A stretch of 64,000 bases of DNA from Octopus vulgaris. Lineage: Eukaryota. Shown piece by piece: positions 57,508 through 61,515 of the stretch. The notes under the pieces are model-generated. The model was not told where the DNA came from. It searched no databases and was given only the letters and a program-made list of their open reading frames with translations. The stretch covers positions 77,500,001-77,564,000 of the forward strand of contig OX597819.1 of the NCBI GenBank assembly GCA_951406725.2. The letters are read 5' to 3'. The position numbers and the translations under genes were made by a program. The first letter of the stretch is position 1; each line of letters starts with the position of its first letter.

Positions 57508-57859
57508 ATATACATACATATATACATACATATATACATACATACATATATATATATATATATATATATATATATATATATATATATATATATGTATATG
57601 TATGTATGTATATATGTATGTATATATCATCATCATCATCATCATCGTTTAACGTCCGCTTTCCATGCTAGCATGGGTTGGACGGTTATACATATTGTAT
57701 AACGTTGACTCCAATTGGATCGAGTTGGTTTGGCCAATAAATGCTCATGTGCAGTGAACAATTCTAGTATATTTTTGAATAATGTCCTTTATATGTAAAC
57801 ACACACAAACTCTCTCTCTCTCTCTCTCTCTCTCTCTCTCTCTCTCTCTCTCTCTCTCT

Positions 57860-60838
57860 TGCTAGGTGACTTCAACATAATTTGCGATGCAAGCGTAGAT
57901 TATGTTGGCTCAAGAAAGAATACGAGGGGATTACCTCACCTCAACGATATGCTAAGTCGTTTCGAATTGGCAGATAGATTCAGACTGGACCATCCAGACA
58001 CTCCAGCGTGGACCTGGGCAAGAAACGACGGGTCGTCCAGATCTTATATCGATAGAATCATAACTAGAAGGAAAGATAAGAAAATACTTAGCTGTCCACA
58101 ACACCGTATCGTCAGCTACAGCGATCACAAATTAGTGACCTGTACGCTCGACATAGATAGCATGTGTAGACGAGGTACCGGCTACTGGAAGCTAAACAAG
58201 TCACTATTGGACTGTGAAGCCTACAGGAATCGGATTAAACAATTAGTAATGAGGGCGTTAACCGGATCCATTATCAACAATAAATGGTGGTACGCCCTGA
58301 AAAGAGCCATCAAATTTGAGTCAATTAGGTTTAGCAAAGAACTAGCTAGTGCTAGAAACAAAGTAGAAAAGGAACTAGTTAAGGCAATAGAGGAGGCAAT
58401 GAGGTCAGGCAGTGCATCGAAAGTGTTAGCGGCGAGGTTAGCACTAGACCAACATCTCAAAGCTAAACATGAAGGGTGCATTGTCAGGGCTAAGATCCGT
58501 GCAATGAGACAGGAAGGGATCAACGCAGCCGGATGGGCCCGGGTGGTAGAGGGCCAGCGTGGCAACAACTCAACCATTCGATCCTTGACGGGCCCAAATG
58601 GTCGATTAGTAAACGAACCCGAGGAGATGTGCAAGGTGTTTCATGATCATTTCGCCCAGCTATTCGGGAGGAGCGGCGGGCTGGAGCGCGGGGAGAAGCT
58701 CGCAGACTTCCTAGCCGGTTCGCCGCGTCTATCGAGGCCGGACGCGGAATCTTGTGAGGCGCCGATCACAGCCAAAGAAGTCGAGGATATGTTGGCAGAC
58801 TGCGGCGGGGACAAATCGCCGGGACTCGATGGTTTGCCTTACGAACTCTATAGTAGCATGCCAGACTTGTTTGGGCACCTACTTGCATGCGTGTACACCA
58901 ACTGGCAGCAGAACGGGAGAATTCCTAAGTCTGTGAGCCGAGGGGTGGTAGCGCTGTTAAGAAAGGACCCAAACAAGGGGGATTTAATTGATAATTTCCG
59001 GCCTATCACTCTGCTTAACGCAGAGTTGAAGATCTTGGCCAAGGTCTCAGCAAAAAGGTTGGCGAGGGTCGTGGGTGAACTTGTTGGCGAGGCGCAAACT
59101 TGCGCCATCCCTGGAAGGACCATCCACGACAATCTTCACTTTCTACGCTATGCCTTAGAAAGGGTAAATAGGATTCCTGGCAAGGGTGGGGCTATGGTCC
59201 ACTTGGACCAATCGAAAGCGTTTGATAGGGTGGACCATCAGTATCTGGAGGCGGTCCTCGCGGCGGCTGGCTTCGGCCCGACCTTCCGCGGATGGATCAT
59301 CGCTTTATACAGCAACATCGAATCGGTAGTTCGGGTAAATGGTTTCCTTTCGGAACCGTTCAGCATTGAACGTTCGGTACGTCAAGGGTGTCCTCTCTCC
59401 CCGCTTCTCTACGTTTTGGCCCTCGAGCCGTTGCTGAGGAGGTTGGAAACTATGAGATCTAGGGTGCGGAAAGTCAGCTTCGGCGTATGCGGACGACATC
59501 ACCGTCATTATTTCCCGAGTCGAGCACCTACAGTGGGTGGGTGAGGCCTTAAGGGACTACGAAGCGGTGGCAGGAGCGAAAGTCAACCGGGATAAATCGG
59601 TCGGCTTGCAACTCGGCACCTGGAGGGGCAAGTCGATGTCTTCCGACAGCGTCGTAGGACGTTGGACGGAAGGACCGGTGAAAATGCTTGGGATCTGGTT
59701 AGGTCCAGATCTCCAGATAGAGAAGAACTGGAGCGAGGTGGCGAGAAAGGTGGCTCTCCTAACTCAGACATGGTCTGAGCGGAAACTGTCCTTGAAAGGG
59801 AGGGCGGAGGTTGCAGAAGTGTTTATCGCCTCTGTAATCACTTACCGCCTAACCGTAGTGCCTTGCCCCGATTCGTGGCTGAACAAACTGGAACGCATGC
59901 TCTTTCGCTTTTTGTGGAGGGGCAGCAGACCTCTTGTAAGGCGCTCTATTTGCTGCCAAAAGCCGCTGAACGGTGGGTTAGGGATGCCGTGGCTAAAAAT
60001 GCGCAGACATGCGCTCAGGCTTAGGCACCTCTGGATTTACCTGGACGGTGAGCAGGTGTGGTCCCCGTTTGTCAAGCTGTTATTTCCACAGTTCACATCG
60101 TTTAACGAACTGAACCCATGGATCAAGTGTAGACCGAGGTTGGGCATGTGGCATGCAGAGTGCTATCAGGCACTCGTGCTTCTCTCCCAGTCGGGCAACG
60201 CCGGTGTCGGGGCTACTACCGCTTTCTTCTATAGAGGGTTAGTAGAGTTTAAGTGTGACGACGTACTAGGAGAAACTCTGGGCTTCGACGAAAATCAACT
60301 GGCCAGCCTGTTCCAAAGAACATTCGGTCCGGGGCCTATGGATAATTACCAAAAGTCCCTGGCCTGGCAATGTTACAGAGGAGCTTTACCGGTTCGAGAT
60401 AAGCTCTTTAGACATGGGTGTGCACCTTCGCCGGTTTGTGCAAGATGTAAGAGGGACAGTGAAACTGTCCTGCACGCGATTGTGCAATGCCCCAAGGTGA
60501 CTGAACTCTGGACTTATGTCGAACACCTGCTGTCGCATTCGAGAAGAGTACAACTGTCGAGCGAATCTGTAATTAAGATCGTTCCGCCGACCTTCCTGAA
60601 TAGGGAGGAGCGAGCCTGTTTTCTTTCGGTAGTTGCTATGGCGAAAGAAGTAGTGTGGAAGACGAGAGTAAAAGGAATTGCAACAGGCATGTTTATCTCC
60701 AGTCTCGAGCTAATCGACTTTTTCGTTTTCCACATGAAACGGAAAATAAGGCTGGAGAAGAAATGCCTGTCGCAAAGTGTGTTTCGTAAAAGATGGAAGT
60801 CTATAGCAAGTATGTTGCGAGTGAAAGAACCTGTTTAA
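57860..60838 (+). pseudogene. LINE ORF2, truncated within the endonuclease and frameshifted at ~59455
   Basis: ORFs 57859-59544 and 59537-60838 are one protein; YADD lies in the second frame, which is open from 59456. Confidence 0.9.
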
Positions 60839-61057
60839 TCGAGAATGTAAAAAAGGATAAAGCAAGTCTTCAGTGTGAGTATGTGGTTTTTGGGGTCGAC
60901 CGCGTCCTCCGCTTCATTTTTTGTTAATCACTCATTCTCATTTAATTGTATATATTTTAATTGTTTGTTTATTCATATGTTTCGTCTCATTCGATACCCT
61001 GACCCCAACGTTTGTTTTGTCCCCTCTTTTTCTCAACCTTATGGTGAATAAAGAAAT
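57860..61057 (+). mobile_element. 5'-truncated Tx1/L1-clade non-LTR retrotransposon (APE-RT-zinc finger) inserted in (TC)n
   Basis: APE motifs LGDFN, SYIDR, SDH; YWKLN; KSPGLDG; FRPITLLN; KAFDRV; RQGCPLSP; YADD at 59486; CARC...H...C zinc finger; AATAAA at 61047; (CT)n on both sides. Confidence 0.95.
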
Positions 61058-61515
61058 ACTCTCTCTCTCTCTCTCTCTCTCTCTTTCTCTCTCTCTCTCT
61101 CTCTCTCTCTCTCTCTCTCTCTCTCTCTCTCTCTCTCTCTCTCTCTCTCTCTCTCTCTCACACACACGCACACACACACACATGTGAGTGTATTTGTAAA
61201 CACGTACGCATTTATAAAGTCTGACAAGTTCAGATATTATTTCGTTCCGATTAAATTAAACATTGGTTGACAATATTGTTTTAATTTTTCCTGAAAGAAC
61301 AGGATAAAAAAATATCAACAACTTTAATTTTCTGTATATATAAATTATATAAATATCAATTTTATTGTATAACATCTGCCGCACTCAAACATACATTTAT
61401 ATAAATTTTCGTATCGACTGAATAATTTTTTTTCGGCGTTCCGAGTTTTATAATAAACGTGACAAAGTTCACTTTCTTTGAAGTGTAATAGCGCCAGTGT
61501 GAGTAAGAAATCAAA

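What the first reader, a model, noticed from the sequence alone, without database searches (positions are those of the whole stretch)
57810..61158. Candidate (TC)n-specific Tx1-clade retrotransposon
Seen: a young-looking LINE with pure (CT)n directly at both junctions, no poly(A) tail after AATAAAGAAAT, a second copy in a TC tract (44348-45369), and an empty paralogous site. Known: Tx1-clade elements include sequence-specific families, and Kibi elements of fish target (TC)n. Inference: a microsatellite-targeting APE retrotransposon in this invertebrate, either related to Kibi or convergent. The copy here lacks the N-terminal part of the endonuclease and ends ~460 bp upstream of a gene start.
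Basis: partly seen in the sequence, partly recalled or inferred. Interest (0 to 1): 0.7.

Follow-up and report, generated by a model that had tools for sequence, protein, structure and literature searches.

The report
Octopus LINE targeting CT microsatellites
This is a broken copy of an octopus jumping gene whose hundreds of copies sit inside (CT)n repeats, while its closest relatives in the same genome sit in ATT or TATC repeats; this is a known kind of targeting, likely evolved separately from the fish example, and it offers a ready test of how such elements switch targets.

Summary
Confirmed. 57860-61058 is a 5'-truncated, frameshifted copy of a 5.4-kb APE-RT LINE family with at least 351 copies. 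(CT)n is the target, not a tail. 39 of 76 truncated copies, cut at 70 different points, have a CT run at the 5' junction, against 0.8% background. Empty paralogues already hold the tract, and two independent copies hit one 8-nt (CT)4 motif. None of 115 3' ends keeps poly(A). The nearest relatives here (62-64% ORF2 identity) sit in (ATT)n and (TATC)n and form one clade with it and an Argonauta protein (100/100). Convergence with Kibi is therefore likelier than orthology, but no Kibi sequence was available to test this. ORF2 lacks an AUG at the expected start yet is under purifying selection. The families carry a predicted pairing between the pre-ORF2 spacer and the ORF2 stop: strong in the sisters, weak here. 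The scan noted the TATC family (e1-9514738) and such a pairing (e1-8673698) before, on other DNA. The 62.7-kb empty site is probably a haplotype duplicate of the one at 55.3 kb. Verdict: new member of a known kind.

The parts
57810..57859 (+). 5' (CT)25 target tract; the last T is shared with the element (1-nt microhomology)
57860..61058 (+). 5'-truncated copy of the CT-targeting LINE (nt 2219-5433 of full length; 98.3% to natural copy L050)
57859..59457 (+). ORF2 remnant 1: C-terminal half of the APE endonuclease (GDFN, loop WTWARNDGSSRSYIDR, SDH) and first part of the RT; a 14-bp deletion near 59457 shifts the frame
59456..60838 (+). ORF2 remnant 2: rest of the RT (YADD) and zf-RVT; stop ends at 60838
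60833..60853 (+). 3' arm of the inverted repeat that in full-length copies is complementary to the pre-ORF2 spacer (the partner is absent from this truncated copy)
61047..61052 (+). AATAAA, 6 nt before the 3' junction; no poly(A) follows
61059..61159 (+). 3' (CT)n target tract, 50.5 units
44348..45369 (-). second, older copy (93%), about 1.03 kb of the 3' end, in a degenerate CT tract
55206..55415 (+). empty paralogous site (81-85%) with a pre-existing interrupted CT tract at the homologous position
62707..62840 (+). second empty site; probably the other haplotype of the 55.3-kb site, behind the 100-N gap at 62607-62706
61516..61686 (+). likely exon 1 of an acyl-CoA dehydrogenase gene; a neighbour, not part of the element

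Best explanation
This is a dead, 5'-truncated copy of a young Tx1-type LINE family whose copies lie in (CT)n runs in one orientation, likely because its APE endonuclease nicks the (AG)n strand and primes reverse transcription there. Shown: family anatomy (ORF1 with a CCHC knuckle; ORF2 with APE, RT and zf-RVT), target bias, orientation, no poly(A), targets as short as (CT)4, and duplications from 0 to about 17 nt. Inferred: copying starts at the RNA's AAUAAAGAAAU(A) end, so no poly(A) is copied. A second nick 0-17 nt further on gives the duplication; when it is close, no CT is left on the 5' side. The AAUAAA 6 nt from the end would place RNA cleavage inside the host CU tract, so a short read-through (CU)n may help priming (untested). 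The G at most full-length 5' ends is likely a copied cap, so the RNA starts at ATCGG and the 5' tract is target DNA. ORF2 is likely made by non-AUG reinitiation after ORF1. CT specificity likely arose inside an octopod radiation of microsatellite targeters, in parallel with fish Kibi.
For:: 90 genome-order copies; 9 of 9 full-length and 39 of 76 truncated copies have a CT run of 6 nt or more at the 5' junction, against 0.8% of 13,967 flank windows; 70 distinct cut points; 0 of 76 GA; 31 of 76 have CT of 8 or more, 0 ATT, 1 TATC; two independent copies sit in the same (CT)4 motif of a dispersed repeat; 18 of 19 empty paralogues continue TCTC or TGTCTC at the junction; further empty sites with the tract (L046, L082, L112, L124, window); 15-17-nt duplications in interrupted tracts (L092, L026, L107, L082) and 23 nt in L090, with no extra CT added; 12 informative duplications against 1-7 in 20 shuffles; the first bases after GAAAT are ACTC in 80 and TCTC in 25 of 115, AAAA in none; 27 of 37 G-starting 5' ends have CT directly before them; shared ORF2 changes 65 nonsynonymous to 81 synonymous, private changes 592 to 311; sister families on (ATT)n and (TATC)n in one clade.
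Against: 37 of 76 truncated copies have no CT run of 6 nt at the called 5' end. Some are N gaps, old or mis-called ends, but 15 of 36 young truncated copies (95% identity or more, all unique copies) also lack it, and only one such case (L023) was resolved by an empty site. Filled tracts are often longer and purer than their empty paralogues (window, L044, L124), and 5' tracts of full-length copies (median 36 nt) exceed those of truncated ones (median 4), so RNA-borne or slippage-made CT cannot be excluded. No nicking was assayed. In PMC1950540 nicking specificity alone does not explain integration sites. Kibi, Koshi and full-length Tx1L were not in the trees.
Confidence: 0.8

Rival explanations
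1. The target is chosen mainly by RNA-DNA pairing. The endonuclease is loose, and each family's transcript reads through into its host microsatellite and pairs with a nicked copy of the same repeat, so a family can switch target without changing its enzyme.
For: All three families end 4-9 nt after AATAAA without poly(A). The ATT and TATC families have nearly the same EN hairpin loop (TNRIG, TNRVG) but different targets. PMC1950540 concludes that factors other than nicking contribute. Note e1-8670400 suggests the same for another octopus family (untested here).
Against: L092 inserted in CCCTTTCTTCTCCCC, a poor partner for (CU)n, and informative junctions show no added CT. The three endonucleases are only 56-59% identical to the CT one, so other residues could carry specificity. 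No 3'-end RNA data.
Confidence: 0.3
2. The family is a true Kibi, by ancient descent or horizontal transfer, and TC targeting is ancestral; the ATT and TATC families switched later.
For: Same target and same broad clade as Kibi (PMC4494074, PMC3812793, passages). Branching inside the octopod clade is unresolved. A sister group of unnamed proteins at 43-52% RT identity has unknown hosts and targets.
Against: The nearest named relative is from Argonauta hians (66% over the RT). The best named vertebrate hit, a turtle protein with a Tx1L-like loop, is 41% and lies outside the 100/100 clade. Relatives at 62-64% use other targets.
Confidence: 0.15
3. (CT)n is only the element's own 3' tail and insertion is random in a microsatellite-rich genome.
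For: 83 of 90 3' junctions, but only about half of truncated 5' junctions, carry a CT run.
Against: About 60-fold, strand-specific 5' enrichment; family-specific motifs; tracts already present in empty sites; two hits in one (CT)4 motif.
Confidence: 0.03

Closest known systems
Kibi (TC)n and Koshi (TTC)n of teleost fish; crocodilian Tx1 families on (TTCC)n/(TTTC)n (PMC4494074: passages and section 15 read; PMC3812793: passages; the original 2004 paper is not held)
   Same: APE-type Tx1-like LINE inserted in a pyrimidine microsatellite; for Kibi the identical repeat; close relatives on different microsatellites.
   Different: Mollusc host; sisters use ATT and TATC; nearest named relative is another octopod; minimal target only (CT)4; ORF2 without AUG. 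Whether Kibi shares the last two traits was not seen.
Xenopus Tx1L (PMC1950540: abstract and passages; loop graft in PDB 2v0r)
   Same: APE-RT-zf-RVT ORF2; the L1 endonuclease carrying the Tx1L loop is the best PDB match (E 1.9e-11); site-specific.
   Different: Tx1L targets one site in the Tx1D transposon; its hairpin loop is two residues longer.
Dong (TAA)n, Waldo (ACAY)n, Mino (AC)n (PMC3812793, passage)
   Same: Non-LTR elements in microsatellites; Dong includes a snail member and shares its repeat with the ATT sister family.
   Different: Other clades (recalled: Dong is R4-type, Waldo and Mino R1-type); other targets than CT.
Mammalian L1 and silkworm SART1 ORF2 translation (PMC5972666, PMC3894237: passages)
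   Same: Bicistronic RNA; ORF2 reached by termination-reinitiation, in SART1 with an RNA structure near the junction.
   Different: Both have an ORF2 AUG; here it is missing. That L1 tolerates loss of its AUG is recalled (Alisch 2006, not held).

Membership tests
L1/Tx1-group APE LINE | ORF2 with N-terminal APE endonuclease, RT and C-terminal zf-RVT | tested here: met
   PF03372, PF00078, PF13966 on natural copy L033; best PDB hits are L1 endonucleases
L1/Tx1-group APE LINE | Separate ORF1 nucleic-acid-binding protein | tested here: met
   ORF1 of 440-540 aa with zf-CCHC, E 1e-4
L1/Tx1-group APE LINE | TPRT marks: fixed 3' end, variable 5' truncation, short duplications, no LTRs | tested here: met
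   70 cut points in 76 truncated copies; duplications 0-17 nt, one 23 nt
Tx1 clade | RT groups with reference Tx1 elements rather than L1 proper | tested here: inconclusive
   Groups (100/100, midpoint root) with turtle, amphioxus and coral proteins, apart from a Ciona/Phallusia/Oculina group; the turtle protein has a Tx1L-like loop, but no named Tx1 reference was in the tree
Microsatellite-targeting LINE (criterion of PMC4494074: more than 20% of flanks of one type) | Target repeat on both sides, including truncated 5' ends, and present before insertion | tested here: met
   39 of 76 truncated and 23 of 23 full-length 5' ends; 83 of 90 3' ends; empty sites
Kibi | Inserts in (TC)n | tested here: met
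Kibi | Monophyly with KibiDr/Fr/Tn in the RT tree | not testable with these tools
   No Kibi or Koshi protein was named among the hits listed in three homologue searches; indirect evidence is against
Kibi | Endonuclease nicks (GA)n | not testable with these tools
   Needs an in vitro assay

The most novel reading that the evidence does not exclude
An octopod radiation of Tx1 LINEs has divided up the host's microsatellites (CT, ATT, TATC) and switches target through the repeat that its own read-through RNA carries, not through its endonuclease. A long-range zipper joining the ORF1 stop region to the ORF2 stop controls ORF2 translation and let the CT family lose its ORF2 start codon.
Probability: 0.2. 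Interest if true: 0.78.

Novelty: new member of a known kind. Interest (0 to 1): 0.5.

Why it matters
How APE-type LINEs recognise microsatellites is described as not well understood (PMC3812793), and loop grafts did not transfer specificity (PMC1950540). This genome holds three young families at 62-71% ORF2 identity, each with open ORF2 copies and its own repeat. That is a natural set for swapping endonuclease, RT and 3' UTR to find what sets the target. It extends TC targeting from fish to a mollusc, probably by convergence. The AUG-less but selected ORF2 is a natural test of non-AUG reinitiation. In practice, CT markers in this genome can hide LINE insertions.

Tried and rejected
Kibi, Koshi or Tx1L sequences for the tree: none named among the hits listed in three homologue searches or the Atlas search; the 2004 paper is not held. 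Metagenome scan for the flanks of the unnamed sister group: 80 loci, 79 at 24-34% identity and one at 41%, no usable target information. Empty orthologous allele from other individuals: contigs of 4 runs laid on the 3' flank stop at the (CA) repeat, so no answer. Expression: no RNA holder listed on record. Splicing from the donor-like GTAAGT at the ORF1 stop: no joint in three small runs (two guessed RNA, one of unknown kind), and one contig crosses the ORF1/ORF2 junction unspliced; contigs cannot show absence, and no AG lies before the first EN strand. Frameshift fusion of ORF1 and ORF2: stops intervene in both frames, so it is not favoured. Long target duplications: L038 and L090 lie in tandem repeats, so only the short overlap counts. 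The ORF2-bracketing pairing as a strong feature of the CT family: top inverted repeat by listing in L043, but not among the 25 shown for L085 and not better than other windows by energy (-19.6 against -20.8 kcal/mol). The topology test CT plus turtle did not finish. Literature: 8 searches listed no paper on a microsatellite-targeting Tx1 in cephalopods; PMC13282606 (passages) counts 13 recently active L1-Tx1 families in O. vulgaris and has no occurrence of 'target'. Repbase and supplements were not seen and may already name these families.

Full report
1. Observation. The sequence shows (CT)25 at 57810-57859, an element at 57860-61058 ending AATAAAGAAATA, and a 101-nt CT tract. Two long frames carry RVT_1 and zf-RVT; a 14-bp deletion near 59457 separates them. 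A second copy lies at 44348-45369 on the minus strand, 93% identical, in a degenerate CT tract. Empty paralogues at about 55320 and 62750 have an interrupted CT tract at the same position. The stretch 55280-62600 is repeated at 62707-70026 across a 100-N gap at 95% identity, with the same truncated element (98.9%) and the same first exon. The acyl-CoA dehydrogenase N-domain exons that follow were found once. I read this as two haplotypes placed in tandem, so the window gives one independent empty site, not two.

2. The family. The 3' end gave 919 candidates and 351 exact 24-nt matches. Full-length copies are about 5.4 kb: a 5' UTR starting (G)ATCGGTC, ORF1 with a CCHC knuckle, and a 1138-codon ORF2 frame with APE endonuclease, RT and zf-RVT. 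The window copy starts at nt 2219, inside the endonuclease. ORF2 is open to its normal end in 4 of 23 full-length copies (L033, L042, L088, L132); none of the 23 had both ORFs whole, partly because an A-run in ORF1 varies from 8 to 12 nt.

3. Target or tail. I took 90 of the first 100 listed matches in genome order; 9 were already held from earlier calls and 1 was not fetched. Of the 90, 9 are full-length, 76 truncated and 5 ran past the fetched DNA. A CT run of 6 nt or more lies at the 5' junction in 9 of 9 and 39 of 76, against 0.8% of 13,967 flank windows (binomial p 2.5e-60). None of 76 has GA, and the element's own sequence before the cut has no such run in 76. The 76 include one N gap, one tandem copy and several old, poorly aligned ends, which were kept. 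There are 70 distinct cut points. Over all unique copies 23 of 23 full-length 5' ends have CT; genome-wide, 27 of 37 G-starting 5' ends have it directly. At the 3' side 83 of 90 have CT; the four bases after GAAAT are ACTC in 80 and TCTC in 25 of 115 copies and never AAAA.

4. Empty sites and geometry. L023 has no 5' CT. Its flank is a dispersed repeat, and 18 of 19 empty paralogues continue TCTC or TGTCTC at the junction, typically as a (CT)4 motif; L102, with another cut point, hit the same motif. So a short CT run suffices, and an insertion with little duplication leaves no 5' CT. This may explain many of the 37 negatives, but only this one was resolved. In interrupted tracts the duplication is 15-17 nt (L092, L026, L107, L082) or 23 nt (L090), with no extra CT between element and target; 12 copies show such informative matches against 1-7 in 20 shuffled pairings. 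Against a pure target model: filled tracts are often longer and purer than empty ones, and full-length copies have longer 5' tracts (median 36 nt) than truncated ones (median 4).

5. Relatives. The closest named protein is from Argonauta hians (66% over the RT). Searching the genome with outside relatives gave two sister families: one ending in (ATT)n (510 exact ends; 30 of 30 sampled 3' flanks ATT) and one in (TATC)n (207 ends; 30 of 30). Their 5' sides: ATT at 5 of 13 short called ends (4 of the 13 are chaining artefacts; none has CT) and at 4 of 8 long copies; TATC at 5 of 12, with 4 more running through tandem copies to the edge and 3 without. ORF2 identities are 62-71%. A careful tree of 23 RT rows (21 long-branch or redundant rows of the 44-row quick tree left out) joins the three families, Argonauta and one unnamed protein at 100/100, unresolved inside, sister to unnamed proteins at 43-52% identity. 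A turtle protein with a Tx1L-like loop and amphioxus and coral proteins lie outside. A further TATC family, 72-77% identical, shares the arrays. The EN hairpin loop is WTWARNDGSSRSYID here, TNRIG and TNRVG in the sisters.

6. ORF2 start. In 25 of 25 copies where the junction was displayed, ORF2 has no ATG before the first catalytic strand, and the position of the sisters' Met is TCG or a variant. Yet substitutions shared by 3 or more copies run 65 nonsynonymous to 81 synonymous (EN 12 to 20), against 592 to 311 for private ones, so ORF2 is likely translated. All three families have GTAAGT over the apparent ORF1 stop and a spacer complementary to the ORF2 stop region. It is the best partner window in ATT (-34.9) and TATC (-44.7 kcal/mol), and own-family pairs beat cross pairs. 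In the CT family it is 18 of 20 complementary but no stronger than other windows. I looked for this after reading note e1-8673698.

7. Mechanism. Shown: target, orientation, precise 3' end, duplication range. Inferred from established TPRT: a nick on the (AG)n strand, priming at the RNA 3' end, and a second nick 0-17 nt on. Untested: whether the enzyme or a read-through (CU)n RNA end sets specificity. Among CT-preceded full-length ends the base before ATCGG is G in 27, T in 9 and C in 4 of 40, which fits a copied cap and an RNA that starts at the A.

8. Comparison and verdict. It works like Kibi (PMC4494074, PMC3812793; passages and one section read). It meets the L1/Tx1-group and microsatellite-targeting tests. 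Tx1 placement is likely but had no named reference, and Kibi membership was not testable. Eight literature searches listed no cephalopod case, but Repbase was not seen. New member of a known kind; interest 0.5, carried by the three-family comparison and the AUG-less ORF2.

Noticed in passing
L145 (G000:C20:63519180-63524906); G000:C4:93.80-93.84 Mb, C47, C50: Sister family ending in (ATT)n, 510 exact 3' ends, many with open ORF2, in head-to-tail arrays of about 5.87-kb period.
   Followed up: partly
L281 (G000:C10:993039-999443); L290, L294, L358: (TATC)n family with 207 exact ends, and a second TATC family 72-77% identical sharing its arrays.
   Followed up: partly
L043:5365-5384 and 8777-8796; L145; L281: Inverted repeat joining the pre-ORF2 spacer to the ORF2 stop region, with different sequence in each family; in the TATC family it covers the GTAAGT at the apparent ORF1 stop.
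   Followed up: partly
L033, L043 and 23 other copies, ORF1/ORF2 junction: ORF2 has no AUG at its expected start but shows purifying selection.
   Followed up: partly
L010, L037, L132, L066/L067: Tandem CT-family copies separated only by a CT tract: new copies land in the tract behind older ones.
   Followed up: partly
window 55280-62600 and 62707 onward: 7.4-kb duplication across a 100-N gap; probably a false duplication of haplotypes that doubles exon 1 of an acyl-CoA dehydrogenase gene.
   Followed up: partly
window 14434-16695 (-): 753-codon open frame with an RS/RD-rich stretch and no Pfam match; probably a large exon.
   Followed up: no
window 57250-57687: SINE-like repeat with a 244-nt near-perfect palindrome (57446-57687) around a TA tract, just upstream of the insertion.
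   Followed up: no
full-length copies, ORF1 near codon 430: An A-run of 8-12 nt sets whether ORF1 ends near 440 or runs to about 540 codons; A9 is commonest (9 of 18), A10 opens the long frame (5 of 18); instability or slippage is unresolved.
   Followed up: partly
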